The notes beneath the pieces are model-generated. The model did no database searches and had not been told where the DNA came from. It was given only the letters and a program-made list of their open reading frames with translations. A DNA stretch of 63,300 nt, counting the filler, from Polymyxa betae A26-41 (Eukaryota; Protista; Endomyxa: Phytomyxea): the NCBI GenBank assembly GCA_003693705.1. It is 6 parts of 6 records of this genome, joined end to end, with 100 filler letters (N's around TTAATTAATTAA, not from the genome) between each part and the next. Parts side by side here need not be neighbours in the genome. Positions count along the whole stretch, not along the records: positions 15,519 to 30,144 come from RBZT01000439.1; 5 more parts are not named here. One strand, 5' to 3'. Shown here piece after piece: positions 6,584 to 52,780 of the stretch (the stretch's first letter is position 1; every line of letters starts with the position of its first letter). A program made the position numbers and the translations under genes.

Positions 6584-6852
6584 TGTCAGGGTCGGGCTAA
6601 ACCAGGCGCTGCCTTCGAGGACAGGAAGGACGGACGGGACTACGAAGAGACAAGAACAGGGAGAGAGAGCGAATGTAGTGCTATATTGAGAACTGATTTA
6701 GAGGTACGTTACAGCGTGGAATTGGTACATTTCGGAACATTCTAGTGATCTACTGAGTGTCACGGAGTGCGGGAATATTCCAAGAGTATTCCAGTGAGAC
6801 TTTTGAAAGATTACGTTACTAACCCTGGGCTGTGCTGGTTAGATCCCTGACA
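6584..6852 (-). mobile_element. 5' LTR (269 bp) of the minus-strand Ty3/gypsy element
   Basis: Terminal inverted repeats TGTCAGGG...CCCTGACA. No TSD. Internal gag region lies on the left side. Confidence 0.75.
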
Positions 6853-8515
6853 GATACTCGAACAAGACCCGGAAGCTATCCCGTCTGTTACTGAATTTGC
6901 CGATTTCTACAGGAAACTATTCTCCGGACCAGGCGCCAGTGACCGAGAGCCTTTTAACCGAGTCCGTAAGCCGGTGGCGGCTGTTGACATTGACAACGAT
7001 GAGAAGGAGGCCTTCAACACCGCGGCTGTCCGCGATCTCCTCCACGGCGTTCAACCCCGGAAGGCTATCGGGCCGGACAACTTCCCAGCCGATGTCTTTA
7101 AGACTTGTCCTAACCCGTCCGCAATGATGCTGTCAGGAATGTTCCGCGTAATGTGGGCACATCAAACGTTACCTCAAGTCTGGCGGCGAAGTTACATTCG
7201 TCCGATTCCAAAGAAAGCCGATGATACGAAAAACCCCGCCAATTGGCGTGGTATTGCGCTGCAATCGCATTCGAAGAAGTTGCTCGAGTCGTTGATCCGC
7301 CGGTACCTACGGAAGAAGTCGTGGACCAGTACGGACATATTACAGACCGGATTCCAGCCCAAGACCGGCGCCATCGACGCCGTGTACGCGATTGACGAGC
7401 TGTCGCAACAGTACGCCCGTAACGGTCAGCCTTTGACTATGGTTCTGCTTGATATACAGAAGGCGTATGATCGAACACCGCGATCGATGATCTACCGCAA
7501 GCTCAAGGCCCGCGGCGTTCCAGGCCACGTGCTCGGCGTCCTGCAAGCTCTGCTGGACTCGTGTACTGTGGAAATCCGCCTCGATACGGATAGGTCGGAC
7601 CCCGTGCTGGTCCAGGTTGGAGTGCCTCAAGGCGATGTTCTGAGCCCCGACCTGTTCAACGTGTACGTGGACGATCTCCCGCGCCGGCTAGTTCGCACGT
7701 GTCAACTGTATGGGGGCTGCCCCCGATTTGGTGGAGTCGATATGCCGTGTATCATGTACGCGGACGATCAGACACTCCTGCACTGGCGGCCTGACGCTCT
7801 GCAAGCTATGCTACAGGTTTGCGAGCAGTATGCCGCGGAACATCTGTATCAATACAATGTTGGTAAGTCTGAGGTCTGCTGTCCCGCTGTGGACCAGTAC
7901 GTCCCACTATACTTGAGCGGCGAACCACTTCCGGCCGTCTTTTCAACGACATTGTTGGGCGTCCAGGTCCGCGATGGCCTGGTCTCACATACTGCCCAAC
8001 TGGACGATCGCATCAGCAAAGCCAGCCGCGCGATGTTCGGACTTGACCAGATCGGCGCACTCCGGACCCCGCTCCTCTCCCCGGCAAAGAACCGCCTTAT
8101 CGTCTCTGCCTACAGTCGGTCGCGCGTGGAATACGGCATGGCAATTGCCCGCCGTCTCGTCAAGATCGACCAACTGATCAACAGCCAGCTCGGCGCCTGC
8201 CTTGGTGGCCGCGGTAATGCTTTAGCTATGCGAATCTGTGGTCTGGTCACGGCTGAGGCCCGCTCCGCACTGCTAAGACTCCGATTCATCAACAAGATGC
8301 GCACCCAGACAGCCTCCGGACATCTACACTCTCTACCCGTACGGAGTTATCTGGCCGCATCAACCAATACCCGCAGCTGCCTGCAGAAGATCGTGAAAAG
8401 ATGCCCATACTATCAGCGATCAATATGTTCGTATCAGTTAGAAACGCGTACTCATCATCATCAGGCTGCTTCTTCTGAATTACGATCTCAGTGTGAGATT
8501 TCGCATTCAATATGA
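6853..8515 (+). mobile_element. Non-LTR retrotransposon (LINE) ORF2 reverse transcriptase, 5'-truncated by the LTR insertion
   Basis: Motifs KAIGPD, IPKK..NWRGIAL, QTGF, LDIQKAYD, GVPQGDVLSPDLFNVYVD and YADD. Upstream pre-RT segment FADFYRKLFS. Confidence 0.92.
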
Positions 8516-12158: not shown

Positions 12159-12242
12159 ATGAAGACCGCCGCCGCCCTGCTCGTGGCCGTACTGGTCCTG
12201 GGCGGCGCCTCCGCTACCGACGACCCAGGCCGTTCCGAATAA
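12159..12242 (+). pseudogene. Signal-peptide-coding gene start truncated by gypsy sequence
   Basis: GC-rich MKTAAALLVAVLVLGGASATDDPGR runs directly into the gypsy pre-protease region and stops. Confidence 0.45.
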
Positions 12243-15200
12243 TTCTATAAACCGAAGCGATTTACAGTACTGCTTGCCCGTACTTTCCTCTGCCGTGGTT
12301 ACGACCGAAAGTCTGACTTTGCCCGTTGCCGTTCAACATCAGAGTGATTCCGAGTTAATACCAGCAAAAGCCCTGATCGATTGCGGGGCAAATTCGATGT
12401 TCATTGATCGGAATTTTGCCGAAATGCATAATATCCCTACAACACCATCCCGGACATCTGTACCTGTCACAGCCATCGACGGCTCTGAAATTCACTCTGT
12501 GATAGAAGAAACTCGCTTGACCCTGCATTTCCAAGATATCCATGAAGATTGGACCTTCAGTGTGATCAAAAGTCCGACATTTCCAATTGTTATCGGGCTC
12601 CCTTGGTTACAGAAACACAGCCCGGACATTGATTGGGCGTCCCTATCGATTGCTACCAAGCCGCACATTGGCCTTTCGTGCTCTATCGATTCGACATACG
12701 ATAGGGTCTGTACGGATTCCGAGTATGAAGAATCAGAGGAGTCCGACCCGGAACCTACTGAGATGGACATCGCTTTTATACCAGAAGTCTGCGAGTCAGA
12801 AGATGTCAATTCGCCCCAGGATGATAACCCGAGCGACTATCACAAAGAGTTCCAGCTGTGCACAGCCGCCTTGCAACCCTAACATGCGAATTATCGCTAT
12901 TGGACGTTATCCCTCCCGAGTATCATGACTTTGCTGACGTTTTTGACAAAAAGGGAGCTGACGAATTGCCTCCTCATCGCCCGTATGATTGTCAGATCGA
13001 GCTCTATGCAGGTGAAACGCCACCGTTTGGCCCGACATATAGTTTATCAGAACCAGAACTGAAGGCATTGCGAGAATATTTGGAAGAGAACCTTGATAAG
13101 GGATTCATCCGCCATTCCCGGTCGCCAGCAGGTGCGCCAATCTTGTTTGTAAAGAAGAAGGACGATACACTACGTATGTGCGTTGACTACCGCGGCCTGA
13201 ATCGGATCACCAAACGTAACCGTTACCCGTTACCGCTTATTAACGACCTATTGGACGGGATAAGAGGCTGTCGTTTTTTTAGCAAGATTGATCTACGTTC
13301 TGCCTACAATCTGGTCCGTATACGGGAAGGCGACGAATGGAAAACAGCGTTCCGAACTCGGTATGGACACTTTGAATATTTGGTGATGCCCTTCGGGCTA
13401 GCCAACGCTCCGGCAACATTTCAACATTTTCTGAATGACGTTTTTCGACAGCATTTAGACCAATTTGTAATCGTGTACCTGGATGATATTTTGGTTTTTT
13501 CGAAGACTCAAGAAGAACACGTTCAACACGTTCGTCACGTTTTAGCCAAGTTACGGGAAAACAGACTTTTCGCGAAAGCGGAAAATGCGAATTCGGTGTA
13601 ACGGAAACCGAGTTCCTCGGGTTTGTGATCTCTCATGATGGGTGTATCCATGGAACCATGAAAAAGTGGAAAGTATCGTTTCTTGGAATCCTCCGTCCTG
13701 TGTTCGCGATTTGCAAGTATTTTTGGGATTCGCCAACTTTTACAGACGTTTTATACCTAAATTTTCCGAGATTGTACGCCCTCTGACTAAGCTCATGTCG
13801 AAGAGCTGCGAACTCCAATGGAAATCCGAGCAACAATCCGCCTTCGACACACTGAAGCGTTTCTTCACAGATGCGCCAGTTCTGCGTATCCCGGATGCTT
13901 CGTTGCAATTTATTGTTGAAGCCGATGCTTCTGACTTCGCAATTGGTGCAGTCCTGTCTCAGCGGATTCCCTCGGATAAAAATCGCTTGCATCCATGTTC
14001 ATACCATTCAAGGGCGTTGAGCCCAGCTGAGAGAAATTTTGATATTGGAGATAAGGAGTTACTGGCGGTTAAGGCTGCATTCGAGGAATGGCGACATCAT
14101 TTGGAAGGCGCGCAACACCCTGTTATCGTCTATACTGACCACAGGAACCTCGTCGAGCTCCAAAAGAAAAAGTCACTTTCCCAGCGCCAGGCTCGTTGGA
14201 GCCTCTTCTTTAGTAGATTCGACTTTCATTTTTGCCCACGTCCAGGGTCAAAAAATGGCAAGCCTGATGCGTTATCTCGGCGACCGGAATATTTGAACTA
14301 GTGCATCCAATCGCAAAGTCCGAGAACTCTATTGAACCCTCAGAACTTCCGCCTGTGTTTTTCGACTTTACAGACATTCGCTGGTATTGAAGGTTTACGA
14401 AAGGCGACAGCCGAAGATGAGTTCGCGAAATCGATCATTCAAATTGCTGGATCGAAACGGCGTTTGGGAGGATCGACAAGGACATCGATTCCGGGTGATG
14501 AGTAACGTTCTGCTACTAAACGAACTTATTTATGTCCCAGATGTGGACAATTTACGGCTGTACATTCTCCAACATCGCCATGACTCCCCGATAGCCGACC
14601 ACTTTGGGAGTACCCGAACTTATGATTTGATATCCAGAGACTTTTGGTGGCCCGGACTTCGCCGCAACGTTGCCGATTTCGTCCGCTCTTGTGAAGTATG
14701 TCGACGCTCTAAGACCTCCAAGAAGAAGCCCTGGGGTCTTCTACAGCCCCTTCCGGTTCCTGACCGCAACTGGAGCTCCATCTCGCTGGATTTCGTCACA
14801 GACTTACCAAAGTCCGAGGGCAATACTACAATCCTGGTTGTGGTCTGTCGTAAATCGAAACAGGCAATATTTAACCCTTGTCCCAAGATCCTGAACGCAG
14901 AACAGACCGTCGACGCTTTCATGAAGAACGTGTTCCGTTTTCACGGCCTTCCATCTGATATTGTATCGGACCGAGGCCCGCAATTTTTTTCCAGATTTTG
15001 GTCAAGGATTTTCGAACTTTTCAAACCCAGGTTGAACCTCTCTTCAGGTTATCACCCAGAGACAGACGGGCAAACAGAGAGGATTAACCAGATCCTGGAG
15101 CAATATTTACGCTGTTTCGTGAATTATCAGCAAGACGACTGGGCAGCTCACCTGCCTTTAGCGGAATTCTGATATAACAATTCGCTACATTCGGGAATCG

Positions 15201-15418
15201 GGGTATCACCTTTCTTCGCCAATTATGGCTTCAATCCACGCGCTGACTTACTAGCCCCTTCCAAAATCGAGGTCCCACGTGCCGAAACTTATGTCGAAGA
15301 CTTCGAGAGGTTGAACCGCTTCCTATCGGAAACTTTGCAAGAATCACAAAATCGTTACAAATTGTATGCCGACAAACTCCGTGCCGAAAGTCCGAAATTT
15401 TCTGCTGGTGATCTGGTG
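12243..15418 (+). mobile_element. pol: Ty3/gypsy (Tf2/sushi-like) pol: protease-RT-RNaseH-integrase, frameshifted, cut by contig end
   Basis: Protease [37 protein letters not shown]. RNase [21 protein letters not shown]. Integrase H..HFG..C..C, SLDFV, SDRGPQF, HPETDGQTER. Several frameshifts and stops. Confidence 0.95.
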
Positions 15419-15518
15419 NNNNNNNNNNNNNNNNNNNNNNNNNNNNNNNNNNNNNNNNNNNNTTAATTAATTAANNNNNNNNNNNNNNNNNNNNNNNNNN
15501 NNNNNNNNNNNNNNNNNN
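15419..15518. other. Artificial contig spacer
   Basis: 44N + TTAATTAATTAA (stops in all six frames) + 44N. Confidence 0.98.
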
Positions 15519-15900
15519 ATCTTGGGATTCAGCGGCTGCTGGCTGTTGTTCGGTTTGTCCGGCCTCACTGTCAGAACAGCTTCCGCCCTCGGATTGGTTA
15601 TCCGTATCCATTTCATCCAAAGTCCCAATAACTATTTCTGATTGCTCTTCTTCTCCATTGATACGCCGTTCCGTGGGATCAATAATACGGCTGACGACAG
15701 CGGTGTCATTCGTGGCTGGCTTGGCCAAACACTCACGTAAATTCTTCTTTCGAACAGAGCTGCGAACAATACTTAACTTCTTAACCTTTCCTGGGCACAA
15801 ACGGTTTCGTCGAGCAGAATGAATCATTGCAAGCTCGCTGAAAAGCCGTTCGCAGGTTGCAGTATTGGGAAAATACTGAAGAAATATCAAAGCAAATTGA
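15519..15900 (-). mobile_element. hAT transposase C-terminal dimerisation fragment
   Basis: PNTATCERLFSELAMIHSARRNRL matches the hAT dimerisation motif (CERxFS...RNRL). Confidence 0.8.
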
Positions 15901-15904
15901 TGCT

Positions 15905-16530
15905 ACTGTATTACTCCAGTATCATATATTCCTGCTGTATTAGGAATACTTGTTGTATGGAAACCAGAGTTAATCTATTACTCTTCAATGCTTGAACAGT
16001 TTAGAGCCAAAATCGCTGAACAGCCAAAAAAACAATTCAACCAAGACATTACTGGTATAGATGAGAAGATTAACAAAATACCAGACTCTACAGACTGTTA
16101 TTCAAATATTTAATACTAAAGACGGAGTAAGGCGAATGGGAGACTACCACTCATTGAAAATAAATCATTACAATAGAAAGACAGACAACTACATCACTAC
16201 ATCAGGACGATTAATATTCCTTCAACAGTCAAAACCGGCAGTGTTATAAATATCCAACTTCCAGAGGATATAGTGAAGCTATGTAAGACTGTTATAAGAC
16301 CTTCAAAGAAGGAGCGGGACATATTGTTTAGTGATAATAGAAACGTATATAATAAACGGACAAGTAAAATAATGGGCGAACTTGGGATTGTTGGAGGTGC
16401 ATCGCAATTCCGAAAGATTCAATATCAAAATCCTCACAATAAAGAAGATATGGAAGCACATAAACGTATTCAAGAGGTTGCTAGCAACTCAGGACATTCG
16501 CTTGAAGCCGTCCTCCAACATTACAGTTAA
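15905..16530 (+). pseudogene. Tyrosine recombinase of virophage/Polinton-like-virus type, frameshifted
   Basis: Joining frames gives VRRMGDY (R), TVKTG (K), SQFRK (HxxR box), ASNSGHS (H) and LQHY (Y), in catalytic order. Intronless and AT-rich. Confidence 0.7.
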
Positions 16531-16574
16531 ATTTAAATATATTTTCAATAATTTTCAAAATATATTTATATATT

Positions 16575-16745
16575 TTACGTTGTCCAAATTACGTTTTCTA
16601 CACTTTTTTTCTCTTCATCGCCTGGTTCATCGTCAAAATCATCAGGGTCGTCGAAAATAGACAAGGCTTCTTGTAGTTCTTCAAGGTATTCTTCTTCTGT
16701 AAAATATTCATTGTCGTCAAACATACAACTCTGGTATGGGTTCAT
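16575..16745 (-). CDS. Small acidic ORFan (56 aa) inside the viral-like segment
   Basis: MNPYQSCMFDDNEYFTEEEYLEELQEALSIFDDPDDFDDEPGDEEKKSVENVIWTT*, with AATAAATG start context. Below the ORF-track length cutoff. Confidence 0.5.
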   Translation of the reverse strand: MNPYQSCMFDDNEYFTEEEYLEELQEALSIFDDPDDFDDEPGDEEKKSVENVIWTT

Positions 16746-16854
16746 TTATTATATTATTGCGGTTCCCTTTTAAACCAAAAAAAATTCAGCGTTTTCTGCG
16801 TTTTGACGCGAATTTATATAGTTTAAAAGGATAAATTATCAATAGTAACCAGAA

Positions 16855-17097
16855 ATGGAAACAGCTAAAGATATTAGGGATTCAGTATTATATAAAACAA
16901 TAGGCGCAAAATTTGATGTGGAATTAAATTATGTTAATGGCAAGAAGATTATCAAACCAATGCCTAAGTGGAAACAGATAACAACAGATGTCACCAGCAA
17001 TAGAGATAACATAGCTATACGAACTGGTAAAATAAATAATATAATTTGTATTGACTTGGATAAACCAAAAAATGACGAATTAGACGGTAGAACGTAA
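16855..17097 (+). pseudogene. Bifunctional primase-polymerase (Prim-Pol) N-terminal fragment
   Basis: PMPKWK...NIAIRTGKINNIICIDLD matches the Prim-Pol N(I)xxxTG....(V)xDxD motif. Truncated. Confidence 0.75.
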
Positions 17098-17772
17098 AGT
17101 TTTTGCGTTTGAATTGAAAAAAGTTGAACATCTGACGAACGAATAAATATAACTACAAGAAACTCGCCTAAAAATATAGATAAACAAAGGAAGGATAATA
17201 AACAGAACACAATCAATAGAAGATTACAAAAAGAGAAATTATAATTGATGAATTTTCAAATGTCGTTTTATATGTCCCTTCGTTGAAATACTTCCACAAA
17301 TATAACAAGAAACTGGAGAACATTATTTACAAGTAGTCCGCCGTCTATTATGCTCGCAAATACCACTTCCTCCGCAATCTCTACATAAAGCCCTGCGTTT
17401 AACACTCTTTACAATATCTCAATCTTCTATTATGTTTACAAGTTTTATAGTCTATAGCCATACTGGCATACCAAACGTGGCCAAAGTGTCTGAATAAGTG
17501 CGAGATGATGTTGCTATTTTGACTTTATCTCTTCTACGAAAAGGACAACGTTTGATTCCTGATACTTGTATAGATTTGATGCTGACCCGTCTTATCAGTT
17601 TTATTAATGAAATCCATACCGGTAAAAAAACCAAAACAGGTTGAAGCTGCGTGTGCTATTTAAAAAGCATACATTACCCTCTGATGTAATGTTACCCATA
17701 TATTTCGCTTCAAGCTGAGTGACACTGACATGCATATATCAGTGAGCTGGTTCTGATCGTGAAGTCATTGTT

Positions 17773-19026
17773 ATGGTCATAGCTGACCATGATAGCCATG
17801 ACGAATTGGGCCGGGGCTATTCTTCAGCTTTCGAGAAGCAGCAGCATCAGATCGATTCCTTAAGGATTCTCTTGTCAAGACAGGCACATATCGAACAGCA
17901 TCTGAATAAGACCAAGGATGCCCTAATCCAGCGGATGGATTCGGCCTTGAAACTTCTCAACGTCATCAAACCAAACATAGTCAAGCATCTCTCTGACCAG
18001 CAGCTCAGCGATTGGAATCGCATCGAAAACTTATTGGATGACACCCAATCTAGACCTATGGTTGCAACAAAGAATAGAAGGTCGACCACAGAATTGAAAC
18101 GACAATCACTGTCTTCTCTCTCCGAATCCGAAATGTCTGATTGTAATGATTTACGGTCGTCTTCTTCGCTGCGAAGCGATCACGAACGACAGCAAAGCGA
18201 AAAGCGTCGGGAAAGTTTAAAGGCTTGTGATGGCGACCAAGATAGTTCAGTCACTGATCTCAACTCACGAATTAATGACGTTGTCAAAGAGGAGCAGAAC
18301 ATCAGACGTTCGGATTCGATGTTGCACAGAAACGAGAAGCTCGCCGGAATCAGAGTTAGAGATAGCCAAGATAGCTCAATCACTGATCTCAACTCACGAA
18401 TTAACGACGTTGTCAAAGAGGAGCAGAACATCAGACGTTCGGATTCGATGTTGCACAGAAACGAGAAGCTCGCTGAAATCAGAGATAGAGATAGAGGAAT
18501 AAGTGTTCAAGATAAGATAACAGTTCATTCATTGCAAAGAGCAAGATCAGCTAGTACCATTATACCTGCAATCGACCATTACGATAATTTTGCAGCATCG
18601 ACAGTTCGTTCCGAATCGGAATCAAGCCCAGACCGATCTGGCTCGGAGCGAGATTTTGGTCGGGAACGAAATCGTTCGCAGCGCCGGTCACTTCACAAAA
18701 ACAGTTCCAAACTTTCGATTAACATTTCAGAAGTCTCGCCGCGAACCTCCACCAAGTCAAGCTTCGGTGACGACATGCAAACTATTACAAAGAATCATGA
18801 TATGATCGTAACCAAGCCGATCAAAAGCACGAGCTTGAAAGCAGTTCATTCTAACGAGCAGAATGTTCATGGGGGTTGGCATAGCAGTTTATCAGCCGCT
18901 CAACAAGAATCTCGGACCAGGCAGCGTTCGAAAAGCATCTTTGATAGGCACGTTCAAGAAATCATCGATGGCCGTACTCAGCCGAAGGACCGCCATCGAG
19001 CTCGGCATTTATCGATTGCTAATTAG
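17773..19026 (+). CDS. Hypothetical coiled-coil/Ser-Arg-rich protein with an internal 43-aa duplication
   Basis: 417-aa open frame with a predicted N-terminal coiled coil and a low-complexity tail. Confidence 0.6.
   Translation: MVIADHDSHDELGRGYSSAFEKQQHQIDSLRILLSRQAHIEQHLNKTKDALIQRMDSALKLLNVIKPNIVKHLSDQQLSDWNRIENLLDDTQSRPMVATKNRRSTTELKRQSLSSLSESEMSDCNDLRSSSSLRSDHERQQSEKRRESLKACDGDQDSSVTDLNSRINDVVKEEQNIRRSDSMLHRNEKLAGIRVRDSQDSSITDLNSRINDVVKEEQNIRRSDSMLHRNEKLAEIRDRDRGISVQDKITVHSLQRARSASTIIPAIDHYDNFAASTVRSESESSPDRSGSERDFGRERNRSQRRSLHKNSSKLSINISEVSPRTSTKSSFGDDMQTITKNHDMIVTKPIKSTSLKAVHSNEQNVHGGWHSSLSAAQQESRTRQRSKSIFDRHVQEIIDGRTQPKDRHRARHLSIAN
18237..18494 (+). repeat. Near-identical 129-bp tandem duplication (in frame)
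   Basis: QDSS(V/I)TDLNSRINDVVKEEQNIRRSDSMLHRNEKLA occurs twice. Confidence 0.95.
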
Positions 19027-19153
19027 GCATTCAAATGAACTATACCTTAATTATCCATTTCAATTATCTAAATAACGATTGAGTTTAACTCTCTTCTCTA
19101 TCTGACAGACGCACTGTCACTTTGGGGCTTGAGGAACCTGCTGCCATCGTTAG

Positions 19154-19169
19154 TAGGGTTTAGGGTTTT
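19154..19169. promoter_or_regulatory. Telo-box-like dimer upstream of EFL1
   Basis: TAGGGTTTAGGGTTTT ~80 bp upstream of the ATG. Telo-boxes are known in promoters of plant translation and ribosome-biogenesis genes. Confidence 0.45.
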
Positions 19170-19247
19170 GTGTGAGGGAAAAGCAAAGGAGCGACAGCGC
19201 AGTTTTGAAGCCTTTCTGAATTTGTCGTGATTTCAGCGGGTCGTGTC

Positions 19248-22200
19248 ATGTCAGTTCAGGATACAATCGACCAGCTACAGCGCAGGCCAGACGCTATTAG
19301 GAATGTCTGTATCCTGGCCCATGTAGACCATGGAAAGGTTGCATTATCGAACTTGGGTCGTCAGGGTGCTGAATCTCCGATACAGACGTCGCTCAGCGAC
19401 CATTTAATCAGCGCGAATGGAATTATCTCGAGCCGTGTCGCTGGCCAAGTTCGATATCTTGACAGCCGCGAAGACGAACAAGAGCGTTGCATTACGATGA
19501 AGTCATCATCCATCTCCTTGTCGTTCCGCGACCATCTTATCAATCTGATTGATTCTCCTGGTCATGTTGATTTCAGCAGTGAGGTGTCTACAGCTGCCAG
19601 ACTCTGTGATGGAGCTCTCGTGCTTGTTGACATTGTCGAGGGGATCCAAATTCAGACACAAAGCGTCTTACGTCAGGTCGGCATCCTTTATTCATCTTTT
19701 ATCAAATCATCACAACTTTTCAGCTTTTGTTTCTTAGCTCTATTAAGATTGCGAATTTCGTATCTTTCTGACCTTTTCCTAATCCTGACTTTACTGTTTC
19801 TGTTAACCATTTCAGCCTTGCTAAATTTCTTCCTGTAGGCATGGGACGAGGGCGTCACTCCCGTTCTAATCTTAAATAAAATGGACCGTCTAATCTTGGA
19901 GCTAAAACTGTCGCCGGCCGAAGCATACCATCGCTGCCGCCAGGTCATCGAGCAGGCCAACGCCCTCGTATCGACATTGCACACGGCCGATCTGATGGCT
20001 AAATCTTCCGGCACCGACCATCTCGATGACGACTATGATGATGAGATTGTGTTCGGCCCTGAACGCGGCAACGTCGTATTCGCCAGTGCCATGGACGGCT
20101 GGGCTTTCTCTATCAGCGGTGCCGCTCGATTCTACGCCCGCGCGTTGGGCATGAAAGCGGCCGCTTTGGAGAAGGTTCTCTGGGGCGATTTTTATTATTC
20201 ACCCAAAACCAAGACGGTGTCGAAGAAACCATCGGGCTCCGTCACCAATCCGATGTTCGTCCAGTTCGTTTTGAGCAACATCTGGCAGGCTTACGAATGC
20301 CTGACAACGACACCGGTAGACCATGCCAAGGTGAGGGTTACTGGGGACTAGGGTTTAGGGTTTATCGTCTTTGTAGGTCGAGAAGCTCATCAAGACGTTG
20401 GACGTCAACGTGCAGCGTCGCGATCTTCAGTCACGGGACGACCGCGTCCGCCTGCAGTCCGTAATGCGAGCCTGGTACCCATTGGCACCGGCCGTACTGG
20501 ATCTGTGCCTTGCGCATCTGCCGAGTCCGGTTCAGGCTACTCGCCGATTAAAACGCATCTGGCCGGGCGGGTTGGAATCGGCGAACGAAGTGGTACGGTC
20601 GGCGGCAGAGACGTGCCGCGCTGATGTGGACGACCCGGTTGTCGTGGCCATCACAAAGATGGTTGCTGTCACTCGAGATCAGCTCGATCATCGTCTGCGC
20701 AAACCCCTTTTCGAACGACGCCCGTATCGTCGCCTGGAAGAACGCCAAGCGGAAGCACCCGAGTCCGTTGTTGAACTCACGCCAAACGACGTGGATGATG
20801 AGGTCGACGATGGCAGGCAACGATTCGTCGGACTGGCCCGTGTGTTCGCCGGCCGACTCCGATCCGACCTGGGCGTTTACCTTTATCTGCCTCGATATCG
20901 AAACGACAACGACGTGGACGTGGATGAGAACGCCCATGTCGTGTATCTGGAGCCGGGCTCCATTCGTCTCTACACATTCATGGGGGTAGATCTGGAGCCC
21001 ATCACCGAGGCATATGCTGGGCATGTTGTCGCCATCGCCGGTATCGATGATCACGTTCTATCAGCAGCGACGCTCTCCACGGAGCTGCAAATCGCCCCCT
21101 TCAAGCTGCTCCGATTCGCATCTTCGCCGATTGTTCGGGTCGCCATCGAGCCGGCTCGGACCAGTGATCTGTCAGCACTTTCGGATGGCCTGCGCTTGCT
21201 GGCCCATGCCGATCCGAATATCGAGATCGTCCATCATCAATCGGGCCAGATTCATTTGGTGACATCTGGCGAGCTGCATCTGGAGCGTTGCATTCGTGAT
21301 TTGAATGATCGGTTCGCGCCAGGAATTGCCCTGCGGGTGTCACCTCCCGTTATTCCGTTCAGGGAGACGGTCGCTCAGGAGGCGTCTATTGTTGGTCAGG
21401 CGCGCGATCTCGCCATCTCGTTCACTGTCAAGGTCAGACCTTTGAACTGGGAGTTAGCCCAGTCGCTAGATTCTGCCGAGGTCGTGCGAAAGCTCAGACA
21501 AGCTGGCGGATTCGAGGAGGTGAAAGCCAAAGTGAACGATGGGCTGCAGGAGAAGGTGGTGGCGCTCGGGACAGTACGGGCGATCGCCAACGTGTTGGCT
21601 GTGGGATACGCGCCAGAAGCGTCAACGGAGGCTGTAAACCGGGCCATAATCGGCGGATTTCTGACAGCGGTCTCAGCCGGGACGTTGTGCGAAGAACCGA
21701 TGATGGGCGTCCTGGTGGTGATCGAGCAGTTGGCTCTGGATGAGATTGATGATGTAGATGAAGGCGAGCTGGACCGGCAGGTGCGAGCGGCAGTAAAGAC
21801 GGCGATTCGGTCGGCGTTCGAGGAAGCGTCGCCAAGGCTAGTCGAGCCCATGTACAAGGTCCAGCTGCAATGTACATCGAGCCAGCTTGGCAACCTATGT
21901 AATGTTCTCGCAAGGCGGCGGGGGCGAACGACCCGCGATGATACGATCGAAGGAACCGATATCTTCGTCGTAGATGCATACGTGCCTGTTGAGGCCAGTA
22001 TGGGATTGTCACATGATTTGAGATCAAAGACAAGTGGGTCGGCAGCGCCACAGCTGCTGCTCAGCCATTGGGAGGTGATCACTCAAGATCCGAACTGGAT
22101 CCCGACCACTGCAGATGAACTGGAAGAGTTCGGCAGCAATGCCACCAAGATTGTGAATTTCTCACGAGAGCTGGTGGACAAAGTCAGGAGAAGAAAAGGC

Positions 22201-30144: not shown

Positions 30145-30244
30145 NNNNNNNNNNNNNNNNNNNNNNNNNNNNNNNNNNNNNNNNNNNNTTAATTAATTAA
30201 NNNNNNNNNNNNNNNNNNNNNNNNNNNNNNNNNNNNNNNNNNNN
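30145..30244. other. Artificial contig spacer
   Basis: N-TTAATTAATTAA-N linker. Confidence 0.98.
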
Positions 30245-40395: not shown

Positions 40396-40495
40396 NNNNN
40401 NNNNNNNNNNNNNNNNNNNNNNNNNNNNNNNNNNNNNNNTTAATTAATTAANNNNNNNNNNNNNNNNNNNNNNNNNNNNNNNNNNNNNNNNNNNN
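40396..40495. other. Artificial contig spacer
   Basis: N-TTAATTAATTAA-N linker. Confidence 0.98.
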
Positions 40496-48617: not shown

Positions 48618-48717
48618 NNNNNNNNNNNNNNNNNNNNNNNNNNNNNNNNNNNNNNNNNNNNTTAATTAATTAANNNNNNNNNNNNNNNNNNNNNNNNNNN
48701 NNNNNNNNNNNNNNNNN
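48618..48717. other. Artificial contig spacer
   Basis: N-TTAATTAATTAA-N linker. Confidence 0.98.
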
Positions 48718-51700
48718 TACAAAGTCAAGTTTATTACCAGTTTATTTTCTGGTATTGCAACAAGAACATAGTCGCCAACATCAAAGTTAGGCAATGTCCT
48801 ATGTTTTGACTTACAATCTCGGTGAGATTGCCGCTCAGTCTCAGTAGCAGCTACAATTTCTTTATGCATATACTGAAGACTATTTTGCAAATTTTCAATT
48901 GATTTTATGATTTGATCTGTTTGAATATCAACAGAGGTAATAGCTAACGTTTTTGGGCTATAAAAAATAATATCCAAAGGGTTGTCAGCTGGCAATCCGG
49001 TCATTACAGTGATCGGCGCGTGACCAGCTAAACGACGTTGTGGACGATGGTTTATGGCATGCTCTACCAGCTTTACAAACCAAGGCCAATCAGCTTTATC
49101 AGAACGAAAATCTGATATCATACAACGTAATTAATTTATAACACTACGATTAACAATTTCAATCGTGCCATTTGAATAATGGGCGTAGGCAGTAACAAAG
49201 TGTTGCTGCGTTCCAATTTTTTACAAAACTGTTTCAAAGTCTCAGACACAAAATATGATGCCTGATCAGAAACATATACTTTCGATCTGCCAAAAAGAGC
49301 TCGCCATTGTAACAAGGCATCAACTGTATGAGCCGTATTTGGTACAATGACAGGTGTCAGTAAGACCATACCAGAAAAATCATCTCGGATAACGAATATC
49401 CACTGATAATGTAAAGAGCTCTTTAATTTAGAAGCTATATATAAATATCAAAATGCAAAACCTCATTAGGTCTTGTTCCATGACATGCAGTTCCAAGAGG
49501 TCGAGGAATACGAAATCCTTTCCTCGTTGGAAGGCAATGCAAACATGAAGAGCAGACATCTTTGATGTCTTGCTACATACCGACCCAAAATACCCAACTT
49601 TCTAGCATAGCAAGTGCATTTTTAAAGGAGAGATGACCACAATGACAGCCAGCATGAGCAATGATGCATAGGCGTCTTTTTAGGTCATAACTTTGAACGG
49701 GTATCACTATTCGATTATGTGTTTCAACCAAGAATCCATCAGAGCTCCTAGCAAGGTTGCTATTAGGTAAGTGAAGACCTCCAAAATTTCAGATGGGTCT
49801 GGCCAGACTAAATTTTACACGGTTGAACACGAATAGCTGAGTTTATCAACTCAATATGGTCGGAAGTGGGAGAATCATCAGATTCTTTCAAAGCTTAATC
49901 TGAACTATGGGTTCATTGTTAGATATACCTGCACCTCAACGGGATAGCAGATCTGCCCAATGGTTGTCTTCGCCGGGAATATGATGGATTATATAATTAT
50001 AATCACGAAGTTCGATTCCCCAGCGAATCAGTCTCTCTGCAGACTGTTTTGCACACTTCAAAGGATTATACATAGCAATAAGATTCCTATGATCTGTGTA
50101 CAAATGAAATGGTGTTGGCATATGTAATAAATAAGATACTTTTTTTTAATGTATCTTTGATGGCAAAAGCCTCTTTATCGATAGTCGCCCAATTCAACTC
50201 AGAGCCGTTGAATCGATGACCAACAAACCCTAAGGGTTGGTGATTTTGCACTTGCAAAGGTTTAGCTAAGTCCTCTATTGGAATCTGAGTAACAACTCCA
50301 GAACTAGCATAGTAACTTGCATCACAAAAGACACACTGTAACATATTTTCAGATGGATATGCTAACTCTACTGCATGAGAGATTGCATATTTCAAAGCAT
50401 TAAAAGCATTTGTATGTATTTCATTCCAGCCAAATTTCTGTAAATCAATACGACTGGCTACTCTCTTCGTTCGATGTGGCTGATGCTTCAATGCAGACTC
50501 AAAGATATCCTGCAATTTAACCACAATCTTATTATAGTTCGGGATGGAACGAGACATCCATTGAGATGCCATCAGTATCTGTTGTAATTCATTAGCCTTT
50601 TTCGGAATAGGCATATTACTTAGTGCATCGATCCACTGAGGATCATGTTTTACTCCTGTGGGAGTAAATATTCTTCCACAGAATTTCACTCTATTTTGAC
50701 AAAAGTGACATTTGTCTATATTAAATTTTAAGTTGAATTTATCGGCTAGTTCTAAAGTTCGGCTCAATGTAGCGAACCAAGCTTCTTCAGTATGAGCATA
50801 GCCCAATAAGTCATCAATCCATATAATTAAAGATTTATAAAGTAATTCATTAAAAATTTCAGCCATTCGAGCCTGAAATTGGGTAGCTGAGTTTAGTGCA
50901 CCCTGAATAGATCGAGTCGGCGTAAAAACGCCTCGATCAGTCATAAATGAGAATACTTCTTGACATATTTCATCTAAAGGCATTATCCAAAACCCTTTAA
51001 ATGCGTCCAGAAGAAACCAAAAGTTTTAATTAGATAGATATTGAACAATAGATTCAAGGAAAGGCATCGGCCAAGCTGTTGCCTCACTTTGAGCATTCAC
51101 AGCTCGGAGGTCAACAACCATTCGAAAACCTTTCTCCTTCTTGACTATCTGAACGGGACTAGCCCATTCTGCATTAAAATCTTCATAAATTAAACCATAT
51201 TGAACTAAAGAATCTATAAACTCTTTCAAGTATTGACTCTGCTCTTTAGTATACTGACGTGCTTTACAGCGAATTGGTTTCGCATTAGGCTTCAAATTTG
51301 TCATAAATGGGGTTACAGTTGCAGGTGCATCTGGCCCAAATTTCATTCGAAAGACATCCTTTCGACAAATTAAAAGTTCTAAAGGCCTCTGCTCATAGTC
51401 AGAGCTCATACCCATGGTACGTGCTTCCTTTATTTTATCTTTAAAGTAAGAATAAAGTTCTGATTGTTGATCCTGGCCTATATCCGGTGACACAGACACA
51501 GCATACTCTGAATCAGTTTGTGTATTATCACTTTTTTGTATAGAAGACGCTATTAAAGAGTCTAATGCATTTTGCGGACTGATTCCTATTGACATTAGCA
51601 TGTCATTTCCAAGTAGAAGATCCTCATTCATATCCTGCCATATCAGACATTGCTGGTTTGGCACTAATAATTGACCCATTTTAGTTTCTAATATAATATC

Positions 51701-52680
51701 AGTATTTGTGGCACTTCCGATAGAGGTAGAGTGACCATTAGGCATTTCGAGAGTGACTCGATCCCTAAGTGGAAATATTGTAAATTGTGGCATTAAGCAT
51801 CGAAGTTGATCACATAGCTTGCCCGATATTATGGTGGCATCTGCCCCACTGTCGAGTACAGCTCGACAGCTGAGTTTCCCTCCAGCTAATATTGCTATTA
51901 CAGTATGAGTCTCATTAAGAGAGCTATCTACGATTCTCGCAAGTTTAATATAGTGTGAACGAATATCCAATTTATTCTTCGTTTGTTTTTCCAACTTATA
52001 TTGTTCAAGAAGCTTTTTCTGCTCCATAGGGGAAGGTCGCTGAGGACAGACCTTCATATGATGGCCAGATAAATGACACTTTAAGCATGTAATGATGTTA
52101 CGAGGTTTTTAACCTCCGATTGGCCACTCGGTGGGCCAGCACCAGGATAAGGCCGTTTGGACCCGTGAGGGCCACGAAACGGTTTAGGACGATCCATGTC
52201 ACGAAGGTAGTGTTCAAAATTCTCCACCTTCTGTAACATTTCGTCAATAAACACAGCATGATCAGCACGACCAGCTGGGGTAAAACGGACGTATGACAAC
52301 ATTTCCTCTCTAAAGGCCTTCGGCTCCAGGGCGTCCACCAAGAAGTCGATACAGTTTTTGGTTCCTTCACTGGAACCATAGAAGAGCCGCTGCCAGTTGT
52401 GAAGGGCAATCAGCTTCTCCATCTGTCTGACCAGGTGTAAGGGGAGTGACTGAGGCTAGCTGAAGGGGACGAAGGGAACTAGCTACTTTGCAGGCGAACA
52501 AGATGTGAACAGAAGCAATCAGATTGAAGAATGATTTATATAGGACGAGATCAGGCGATTAAATAGGACGCTGACTGGCTGCAGGCCACTCGAGGAGTCG
52601 ACAGTGGACCAGGCGACTTGGACAGGGTCGACGACGACTTGGACAGAGTCAAAGACGGCTGGCATTACAGTCAAAAACTG
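48718..52680 (-). mobile_element. Ty3/gypsy element filling the whole contig: partial LTR (52436-52680), gag, protease, RT, RNase H, integrase; degenerate
   Basis: VLDSGAD; WASPVQIVKK..FRMVVDLRAVN; QGALNS; WIDD; FCDAS; YTDHRNL; NHWADLLSR; VSDQASYF; INHRP. LTR end TTACA followed by CC-TGGTCAG (PBS-like). Confidence 0.93.
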
Positions 52681-52780
52681 NNNNNNNNNNNNNNNNNNNN
52701 NNNNNNNNNNNNNNNNNNNNNNNNTTAATTAATTAANNNNNNNNNNNNNNNNNNNNNNNNNNNNNNNNNNNNNNNNNNNN
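52681..52780. other. Artificial contig spacer
   Basis: N-TTAATTAATTAA-N linker. Confidence 0.98.

What the first reader, a model, noticed from the sequence alone, without database searches (positions are those of the whole stretch)
15905..17270. Endogenous remnant of a virophage/Polinton-like virus: tyrosine recombinase, acidic ORFan, Prim-Pol and possible SF1 helicase
Seen: a ~1.4-kb intronless, strongly AT-rich island. It carries a frameshifted recombinase with the R-K-(H)xxR-H-Y order (VRRMGDY / KT / FRK / GHS / HY), a 56-aa acidic ORF, a Prim-Pol start (NIAIRTGKINNIICIDLD) and an IIIDEFS Walker-B-like scrap at ~17238. Known: OLV11-type tyrosine recombinases, Prim-Pol domains and SF1 helicases co-occur in virophages, Polinton-like viruses and transpovirons. 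Inference: this is the trace of a possibly undescribed integrating dsDNA virus family of this host, and fuller copies with capsid and packaging ATPase genes may exist elsewhere in the genome.
Basis: partly seen in the sequence, partly recalled or inferred. Interest (0 to 1): 0.85.

Follow-up and report, generated by a model that had tools for sequence, protein, structure and literature searches.

The report
Decayed Polinton-like virus module in protist
A 1.6-kb AT-rich stretch of this eukaryote's chromosome holds a broken tyrosine recombinase, a small acidic gene, the stump of a primase-helicase and a broken zinc-finger gene; it is likely the dead replication-and-integration module of a small integrating DNA virus, and close relatives of it occur in soil DNA, so it is likely a new lineage of a known kind of element.

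Summary
Mostly confirmed, one part wrong, one gene missed. The island (15866-17461, 32.5% GC; the most AT-rich stretch of the window) is a real integrated remnant. It holds: (1) a tyrosine recombinase (YR), 5'-truncated at a hAT junction, with four frame-breaking indels; (2) a 56-aa acidic ORF, syntenic in an environmental relative; (3) 78 aa of a Prim-Pol, 92-94% identical to environmental proteins, whose full-length relatives are Prim-Pol/PriCT-2/D5-type SF3 helicases, not SF1; (4) a broken minus-strand CEH-repeat/C2H2 zinc-finger gene. 'IIIDEFS' is that gene's antisense shadow, not a helicase. YR plus AEP-SF3 is the known replication-integration module of Polinton-like viruses and virophages. 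Bacterial, phage or plasmid origin is not supported. A second, diverged YR copy lies in the same organism's runs. Relatives evolved under purifying selection (dN/dS 0.12-0.18). Neither gene's own clade was found on an IMG/VR contig, so no capsid link is shown: PLV/virophage about 0.6, capsid-less element 0.2, giant-virus fragment 0.15. One spliced contig of the neighbouring host gene reaches into the remnant. New member of a known kind; moderate interest.

The parts
15519..15867 (-). 3' remnant of a multi-copy hAT transposase (dimerisation region); host mobile DNA fused back-to-back to the island. Other hAT copies run on past 15867.
   Evidence: Pfam Dimer_Tnp_hAT E 0.012, below cut-off; loose end at 15867 and a 640-depth contig against 185-196 elsewhere in X1
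15866..15867 (.). hAT/YR junction with a 2-nt overlap; both genes lack their 5' parts here (inferred deletion)
   Evidence: hAT copy matches up to 15867; YR relatives match from 15866 and continue upstream with YR sequence
15866..16530 (+). Tyrosine recombinase pseudogene of PLV/virophage type; 5'-truncated, four frame-breaking indels, catalytic R, K, R, H, Y codons still present
16531..16571 (.). Conserved AT-rich palindrome (about 4.5% GC) between the convergent YR and acidic ORF; likely a 3'-end hairpin, possibly a recombination site
   Evidence: 26-nt invariant run in window, L001 and L002; fold z -2.3, -2.9, -2.0; laid in 4 of 4 metagenome runs, flanks diverging after about 16567-16574
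16575..16745 (-). Intact 56-aa acidic ORF; accessory gene, replaced by another ORF in L001
   Evidence: L002 homologue, E 8e-11 pairwise; X16 contig joins the palindrome to the ORF's 5' end; L001 differs
16746..16854 (.). Divergent intergenic region with a long imperfect inverted repeat; candidate bidirectional promoter or origin (untested)
   Evidence: fold z -3.7, 0 of 200 shuffles as stable; inverted repeat I14
16855..17097 (+). N-terminal 78 aa of a Prim-Pol/PriCT-2/D5_N/SF3 primase-helicase; homology ends at 17088
17098..17238 (.). Unassigned AT-rich spacer (27.7% GC). A 38-codon + frame (17128-17244) ends on a TTATAA shared with the stop of the zinc-finger gene.
   Evidence: not the helicase C-terminus (44 of 100 shuffles score as well)
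17239..17461 (-). Broken CEH-repeat plus C2H2 zinc-finger gene (frame break near 17401, stop near 17323); 'IIIDEFS' is its antisense
   Evidence: best matches L042 (E 5e-14) and L044 (E 9e-12), both sharing the CKxCSPVxC..C tail
17431..17742 (+). Untranslated first exon (from 17431 or earlier to 17685) and 57-nt GT..AG intron of the neighbouring host gene (first in-frame ATG 17773); overlaps the start of the zinc-finger remnant
   Evidence: one spliced contig in run X4; GT..AG ends and CTGAC in the intron

Best explanation
The island is a dead, chromosomally integrated gene cluster, with broken recombinase, primase and zinc-finger genes, that is likely the replication-integration module of a small Polinton-like/virophage-type dsDNA virus. 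Inferred mechanism when active: the Prim-Pol/PriCT-2/SF3 protein would prime and unwind the viral DNA, possibly from the inverted repeat upstream of its gene. The tyrosine recombinase would recombine a circular genome into host DNA through a 3'-phosphotyrosine intermediate (established YR chemistry, recalled). The AT-rich palindrome between convergent genes likely served as a transcript-end hairpin, which would point to use of a giant virus's transcription machinery. After integration the copy decayed. Shown: four indels in the YR, loss of most of the primase-helicase, two breaks in the zinc-finger gene. Inferred: one deletion fused the YR to a hAT transposon. At least two diverged variants likely entered this genome separately. 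The copy can no longer replicate or excise by itself.
For: YR identity. Of the 10 viral-library fold matches at E<=1e-3, the 5 named are Pyramimonas, Heterosigma, Tetraselmis and Aureococcus virus proteins and Qinghai Lake virophage; Yutin 2015 names the Aureococcus virus YR as OLV11-like. Full-length Prim-Pol relatives: D5_N and PriCT-2 hits in 5 of 5, Prim-Pol in 4 of 5, DUF5906 in 3 of 5, NGKS/T P-loop in all 5. The YR profile also hits 3 of the 22 Prim-Pol-anchored viral loci (L008, L016, L023), from contigs of 11-24 kb with ATPase- or capsid-like genes, and L003/L004, whose shared capsid gene folds as a double jelly roll in the L004 model (E 8e-16). The zinc-finger tail matches L044, a 20-kb contig with Pox_A32, a weak Peptidase_C5 and a GIY-YIG-CEH gene. 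Published: YR is strongly correlated with AEP/PolA replicases and forms an end module. Purifying selection: dN/dS 0.18 (window vs L001, 213 codons, no stop in that frame) and 0.12 (L001 vs L002). Gene swap after the palindrome and patchy identity of 73-97% fit PLV mosaicism. Integration: contigs 16371-18306 (X1) and 16835-18306 (X2) run into the host gene with 0 differences. Second copy: 33 of 39 listed differences equal the L002 letter, with insertions at three of the break sites.
Against: No capsid, packaging ATPase or terminal repeat in the window, and no capsid-bearing contig in either gene's own clade. The YR lies in a 17-row clade (95/97) apart from the capsid-linked YRs. The Prim-Pol lies in a 9-row clade (100/99) whose sister group (87/87, not starred) is P0059 plus two giant-virus-like contigs, L005 and L006. 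CEH repeats are common in giant viruses: 15 of 56 pattern loci are GVMAG-named, and none of the 56 carried this YR or Prim-Pol family. The top zinc-finger match, L042, has giant-virus-like neighbours. The left junction contig has only about 30 letters on the hAT side, under the tool's 31-letter rule for a bridge. X1 may be the source sample. The YR-to-Prim-Pol link is seen only in this window; no relative's contig covered both. The palindrome z-scores are modest and its function is untested.
Confidence: 0.6

Rival explanations
1. The active form has no capsid: a few-kb autonomous element (YR + Prim-Pol-SF3 + zinc-finger gene + swappable small ORFs) that replicates as a circle or in a giant-virus factory and integrates by its YR, like a transpoviron but with different enzymes.
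For: No member of either clade in IMG/VR, which I recall is selected for viral hallmark genes: 0 of 18, 0 of 2, 0 matches, 0 of 37; only distant relatives. The compact four-gene order includes a C2H2 finger. A preprint argues that AEP replicases can move autonomously.
Against: The 14 relatives whose contig length was listed for the YR clade (10) and Prim-Pol clade (4) lie on 1.2-6.4-kb contigs, too short to show a capsid, so absence from IMG/VR is expected either way. Pattern scans miss distant relatives. Every longer contig found with a related YR had ATPase- or capsid-like genes.
Confidence: 0.2
2. The island is a scrap of a giant virus (Nucleocytoviricota) genome endogenised by illegitimate recombination; the YR was only a passenger.
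For: The nearest Prim-Pol relatives with known context are L006 (35% over residues 17-683) and the GVMAG contig L005. CEH repeats abound in giant viruses. AT-rich hairpins end Mimiviridae transcripts (PMC4402537, abstract start). Four of the five named top YR fold hits are giant-virus proteins.
Against: The window's Prim-Pol is 42-51% related to small-contig proteins and separated from L005/L006 by a 100/99 branch. No YR lies in the fetched parts of L005 or L006. No giant-virus core gene was recognised among the window's long ORFs (no dedicated search). Several diverged YR variants with swapped neighbours fit a small mobile element better. Giant viruses exchange these replicases with PLVs.
Confidence: 0.15
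3. It is a host YR transposon (Crypton/DIRS-like), or bacterial/plasmid DNA, or a chimeric contig.
For: YR fold matches include bacterial Xer and Cre. The region lies 350 bp from an artificial contig linker. One GTDB MAG contig carries a distant Prim-Pol relative.
Against: No phage or plasmid match. No GTDB YR relative. The MAG hit is a 2.2-kb contig 84% identical to the giant-virus protein of L005. No reverse transcriptase lies on the island's side of the linker up to the host gene. Identical sequence joined to a host gene in an independent study (X2).
Confidence: 0.04

Closest known systems
Polinton-like viruses and virophages with an OLV11-like tyrosine recombinase and AEP/Prim-Pol-SF3 replicase (Yutin 2015, PMC4642659; end modules, Barth 2024, PMC11296320; preprint 10.64898/2026.10.13.758929)
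   Same: YR next to a Prim-Pol-SF3 primase-helicase and a zinc-finger gene that in relatives is fused to a nuclease; intronless, AT-rich, compact; integrated in a eukaryote; mosaic variants.
   Different: No capsid, ATPase or TIR seen. The YR and Prim-Pol form their own clades, apart from the capsid-linked ones sampled here. The first H of HxxR is replaced. No direct comparison with OLV11 itself was made.
Endogenous PLV/virophage elements of protists (Bellas 2023, PMC10120064)
   Same: A GC-distinct insertion with YR and primase-helicase in a eukaryotic genome.
   Different: Those were found by capsid genes and are typically 15-30 kb; this 1.6-kb remnant has no capsid gene and would be invisible to such a screen.
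Transpovirons (PMC5499653, listing and abstract start only)
   Same: Small, AT-rich, no capsid gene seen; a C2H2 finger (recalled feature).
   Different: Transpovirons carry an SF1 helicase; this lineage has Prim-Pol-SF3 and a YR.
Giant endogenous viral elements; NCLDV D5-like primase-helicases and CEH-repeat genes (L005, L006, L042)
   Same: Prim-Pol/PriCT-2/D5_N/SF3 domain order, CEH repeats, AT-rich hairpin between convergent genes.
   Different: Only about 35% identity, a separate clade, and no core giant-virus genes recognised nearby.

Membership tests
Tyrosine recombinase superfamily | Core-binding plus catalytic fold with R-K-(H)xxR-H/W-Y | tested here: met
   Profile vs 4a8e E 5e-7; Z 10.1, rmsd 13.4 over 231 residues to XerA; R141, K175, R235, H263, Y272 in P0001 (roles assigned by position); first H replaced by S
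Polinton-like virus | Double-jelly-roll major capsid protein | tested here: inconclusive
   None in the window with a 7-sequence home-made profile; the element is a fragment, no genome is held, and relatives' contigs are short
Polinton-like virus | A32-like packaging ATPase and minor capsid protein | tested here: inconclusive
   No ATPase hit in the window; minor capsid not searched
Polinton-like virus | Replicase (pPolB, TVpol or AEP-SF3) paired with an integrase (YR or RVE) | tested here: met
   Prim-Pol stump 325 bp from the YR; relatives are Prim-Pol/PriCT-2/D5_N/SF3
Polinton-like virus | YR of the OLV11-like subfamily | tested here: inconclusive
   Fold hits include the Qinghai Lake virophage and Aureococcus virus proteins, and the profile finds PLV YRs, but the window's YR is in a separate clade; OLV11 itself was not available
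Polinton-like virus | 15-30-kb genome with terminal repeats | not testable with these tools
   Left end deleted, right end undefined; no long terminal repeat in 14000-19500
Virophage (Lavidaviridae-type) | Capsid, penton, ATPase and cysteine protease | tested here: inconclusive
   Not found in the remnant; only the zinc-finger tail resembles a gene of L044, which has A32 and a weak protease hit
Transpoviron | Superfamily 1 helicase | tested here: not met
   IIIDEFS is the antisense of a C2H2 finger; 5 of 5 full-length relatives have D5_N and an NGKS/T P-loop
Giant endogenous viral element (NCLDV) | Core genes (PolB, RNA polymerase, NCLDV capsid, VLTF3) over tens of kb | tested here: inconclusive
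   None recognised among the 31 long ORFs of the window (14 scanned); no NCLDV profile search was run and a 1.6-kb scrap need not hold them
DIRS/Crypton YR transposons | YR with RT/RNase H (DIRS), or a lone YR gene without a replicase (Crypton; recalled) | tested here: not met
   The YR sits beside a primase-helicase; the nearest RT lies beyond an artificial linker. No Crypton sequence was compared directly.
Phage/plasmid integrase-primase island | Homologues in phage, plasmid or prokaryote genomes | tested here: not met
   one probably mis-binned contig; YR not searched against plasmids

The most novel reading that the evidence does not exclude
This is the fossil of an undescribed capsid-less mobile element of soil protists: a few-kb YR + Prim-Pol-SF3 + zinc-finger unit that is still active as a recombining population, uses a giant virus's hairpin-type transcript ends (implying an unseen giant virus of this host group), integrates repeatedly, and here now supplies the transcription start region of a neighbouring host gene.
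Probability: 0.15. Interest if true: 0.72.

Novelty: new member of a known kind. Interest (0 to 1): 0.38.

Why it matters
Endogenous PLV/virophage remnants are common in protists, so one more decayed copy is ordinary. Three things lift it a little. First, both genes define clades with near-identical environmental relatives (92-94% aa for the Prim-Pol) that were not found in IMG/VR, so this is a handle on an unsampled, partly soil-borne lineage that capsid-based screens would miss. Second, it ties that lineage to a host genome. If the host is a plasmodiophorid plant parasite (a recalled guess, not tested), it would hint at DNA viruses, and perhaps a helper giant virus, of that group. Third, whether YR + AEP-SF3 modules move without a capsid is an open question, and this family makes it testable with one long-read assembly.

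Tried and rejected
SF1 helicase at 17238: rejected. The idea that 17085-17147 is the C-terminal end of the primase-helicase after an internal deletion: rejected, 44 of 100 shuffles score as well. Pfam and PHROGs on the window pieces gave only sub-threshold hits (Prim-Pol E 0.021, integrase phrog_1 E 0.13). Pfam on intact YRs gave nothing relevant (Phage_integrase in 1 of 23 members at E 0.023). Single-sequence PDB search of P0001 found nothing. Close relatives in IMG/VR: none. The CKECSPVxC pattern gave 12 matches: 1 was the L044 virus again, and the 5 of the other 11 that I read were out-of-frame matches in phage genes. The 18.6 kb of that virus held no YR or Prim-Pol of these families. The L044 putative capsid had no Pfam or PDB sequence match, so that label is my reading. 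The sigma-70 scan is irrelevant and near chance (13 vs 8.9). The palindrome as an attL/attR junction is not supported: its downstream flanks in relatives stay AT-rich and related; an attP role is not excluded. No RNA holder was listed, which is no evidence on expression. Parts without cover in the laid runs (Prim-Pol and zinc finger in 4 of 4 metagenomes; no second Prim-Pol copy in X1/X2) prove nothing. Of 22 listed runs, 8 were laid; the small shares of the other 14 were not used. No whole-genome search and no Atlas look-alike result were obtained. Four look-ups of earlier findings returned nothing. Three of five paper searches combined plasmodiophorid and virus terms and listed no paper describing such an element; the other two were on hairpins and capsid-less elements. 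bioRxiv supplements (e.g. the viral-region tables of 10.1101/2025.04.19.649669) could not be seen and may list it.

Full report
Setting. The window is eukaryotic: intron-bearing genes with EF-G, kinase/cNMP, GST, WD40 and PX domains, and three reverse transcriptases. Five N44-TTAATTAATTAA-N44 spacers are artificial contig linkers. One lies at 15419-15518, so the retrotransposon to the left is not proven to be adjacent. No genome is held for this window. The host clade was not tested. A plasmodiophorid is my recalled guess, from gene style and an excess of TTTAGGG (13 vs 5.4 expected, 0 of 100 shuffles).

The observation. The YR motifs, the acidic ORF and the Prim-Pol start are present. The island is wider than stated, 15866-17461 (32.5% GC), and holds a fourth gene.

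Recombinase. The longest piece (16177-16527) finds 5 proteins among 77 candidates, best 66% over 99%. P0001 (273 aa, intact) finds 28 representatives at E<=1e-3. Their profile matches the archaeal XerC-like 4a8e (E 5.2e-7). The model (pLDDT 88.5) matches Xer, Cre and integrase folds. In the viral library, the 5 named among the 10 best hits are four giant-virus proteins and a virophage protein. Against relatives, the window copy lacks about 52 N-terminal codons and has four frame-breaking indels, near 15901-15911, 16086, 16103-16106 and 16219-16220. It has no in-frame stop over 213 comparable codons. dN/dS is 0.18 against L001, and 0.12 between L001 and L002, at dS about 0.7. The variants therefore diverged as working genes, and the breaks came later. 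Identity to L001 varies from 73% to 97% per 100 nt, which suggests recombination among variants.

Left junction. A multi-copy hAT remnant on the minus strand matches up to 15867, where other hAT copies continue differently. YR relatives match from 15866 and continue upstream with YR sequence. Both genes lost their 5' parts at a 2-nt overlap, so I infer one deletion; this is not the element's natural end. The junction sequence is identical in X1 and X2, but only about 30 letters lie on the hAT side, short of a formal bridge.

Palindrome and acidic ORF. Just after the YR stop lies an almost pure AT palindrome with a 26-nt run invariant in window, L001 and L002, although synonymous sites differ at dS 0.7. 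Fold z is -2.0 to -2.9. It was laid in 4 of 4 metagenome runs. It separates convergent genes. Mimiviridae end transcripts at such hairpins (PMC4402537, abstract start and passages). An att site next to the YR gene was proposed for PgVV (PMC4642659, passages). I favour the transcript-end reading; neither is tested. The acidic ORF is conserved in place in L002 and replaced by another ORF in L001.

Primase-helicase. The 78-aa stump is 92-94% identical to 3 proteins among 57 candidates. Five full-length relatives among 3107 candidates (721-819 aa) all have PriCT-2 and D5_N hits and an NGKS/T P-loop; 4 have Prim-Pol and 3 DUF5906 (that this is an SF3 helicase is recalled). None aligns to IIIDEFS. 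Two run accessions are shared between the YR and Prim-Pol clusters, which is compatible with linkage. No contig other than the window showed both genes.

Zinc-finger gene. The minus strand 17461-17239 encodes CEH-type repeats followed by a C2H2 finger, with one frame break and one stop. Its last codons read IIIDEFS on the other strand. The repeat pattern hits 56 IMG/VR stretches, 15 of them GVMAG-named. The best matches, sharing the CSPVxC tail, are L042 (giant-virus-like neighbours) and L044, a 20-kb contig with A32 ATPase, a weak protease hit and a GIY-YIG fused to the repeats.

Integration and copies. Contigs 16371-18306 (X1) and 16835-18306 (X2, another study) run from the island into the host gene without a difference. 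A second YR copy is laid at 15940-16133 and 16187-16396 in both runs. It has insertions at three break sites, and 33 of the 39 substitutions checked (of 54 places; 14 were not shown and one shown place was hAT) equal the L002 letter. At least two variants therefore entered this genome; its completeness is unknown. Some environmental copies are broken too: contigs in X13 and X18 leave the YR for GC-rich or GGGTTTTAGGG-containing DNA, and P0003, P0004 and P0011 end early. Part of the environmental pool is thus probably endogenous in related hosts. Two of the four metagenomes laid are labelled soil. One contig of X4 (not on record as RNA) skips a 57-nt GT..AG intron and extends to 17431, 31 nt into the zinc-finger gene. 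If it is a transcript, the host gene starts within or upstream of the remnant's right end. Contigs cannot show a start.

Where it belongs. There is no match in phages, plasmids or GTDB, apart from one 2.2-kb contig resembling a giant-virus gene. Distant YR relatives lie on small viral contigs: L003 and L004 (23-28%), with a double-jelly-roll capsid shown for L004, and 3 of 22 Prim-Pol-anchored loci. The trees, however, put the window's YR in a 17-row clade (95/97) and its Prim-Pol in a 9-row clade (100/99), neither containing an IMG/VR row. The Prim-Pol clade's sister (87/87) includes two giant-virus-like contigs (midpoint roots, partial window rows; 8 of the 28 YR hits were left out as short or partial, and near-duplicate loci and L018 were left out of the Prim-Pol tree). 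Published work describes YR plus AEP-SF3 as a correlated end module of PLVs that exchanges with giant viruses and may move on its own (PMC11296320, passages; 10.64898/2026.10.13.758929, passages and section 13; 10.64898/2026.06.19.733378, passages). Bellas 2023 (passages and supplement rows; file cut when stored, header garbled) lists one capsid gene each for a Plasmodiophora and a Polymyxa assembly, so such elements are already reported in that group. PMC10301787, 10.1101/2022.07.28.501842 and 10.1101/2025.04.19.649669 were seen as passages only and did not change the reading.

Verdict. It works like, and probably is, the decayed replication-integration module of a PLV/virophage-type element (0.6). 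Membership is not shown, because no capsid or ATPase could be linked. Rivals: capsid-less element 0.2, giant-virus scrap 0.15, artefact or host transposon 0.04. New member of a known kind; interest 0.38.

Noticed in passing
window 15419-15518, 30145-30244, 40396-40495, 48618-48717, 52681-52780: Five identical N44-TTAATTAATTAA-N44 spacers: artificial contig linkers with stops in all frames; adjacency across them is unproven.
   Followed up: yes
window 17431-17742: A spliced contig (X4) of the unannotated host gene at 17773-19026 extends into the viral zinc-finger remnant; the untranslated exon has five upstream ATGs. Possible virus-derived promoter region.
   Followed up: partly
window 17128-17244 (+) and 17239-17461 (-): A 38-codon K/R/N-rich frame, in the same frame as the Prim-Pol, and the zinc-finger gene end on one shared TTATAA; perhaps overlapping stops of convergent genes; unexplained.
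   Followed up: partly
window 17320-17385; runs X1-X4: Another CEH-repeat locus exists: loose ends encode further repeats, and X3 has a 4553-nt contig with a 54-nt tandem period. Could be part of a fuller element or a domesticated gene.
   Followed up: no
window 16746-16854; L002:1-75: Long imperfect inverted repeat (z -3.7). A GAAAACG word and a TATAATA-like word lie upstream of both the acidic ORF and the L002 YR; AAAACTGA upstream of the L002 YR is one letter from the mimiviral early motif AAAATTGA. n=2, weak.
   Followed up: partly
window-wide: TTTAGGG occurs 13 times vs 5.4 expected, at least two in apparent introns of the EF-G-like gene; a soil contig (X18) joins a YR fragment to GGGTTTTAGGG.
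   Followed up: partly
window 18237-18494: Two tandem 129-nt copies (95% identical) inside the host ORF.
   Followed up: no
window 12163-15418, 48666-52108, 6851-8515: Two broken LTR-retrotransposon-like pol regions and a non-LTR-like reverse transcriptase (classes read by eye): a transposon-rich neighbourhood.
   Followed up: no
L044/L089 (20-kb IMG/VR contig): Small virus with A32 ATPase, putative capsid and penton, weak adenovirus-type protease, two GIY-YIG-like genes and an 828-aa unassigned protein; no YR of this family in the 18.6 kb seen.
   Followed up: partly
P0012, P0019, P0003: Two different YR variants are listed on contigs of the same length (34,930 nt) and another on a 22,547-nt contig: possible tandem or nested copies; the DNA could not be fetched.
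   Followed up: no
L083: A 2.2-kb contig in a Bacteroidia MAG encodes a Prim-Pol 84% identical to that of giant-virus contig L005: probably mis-binned.
   Followed up: yes
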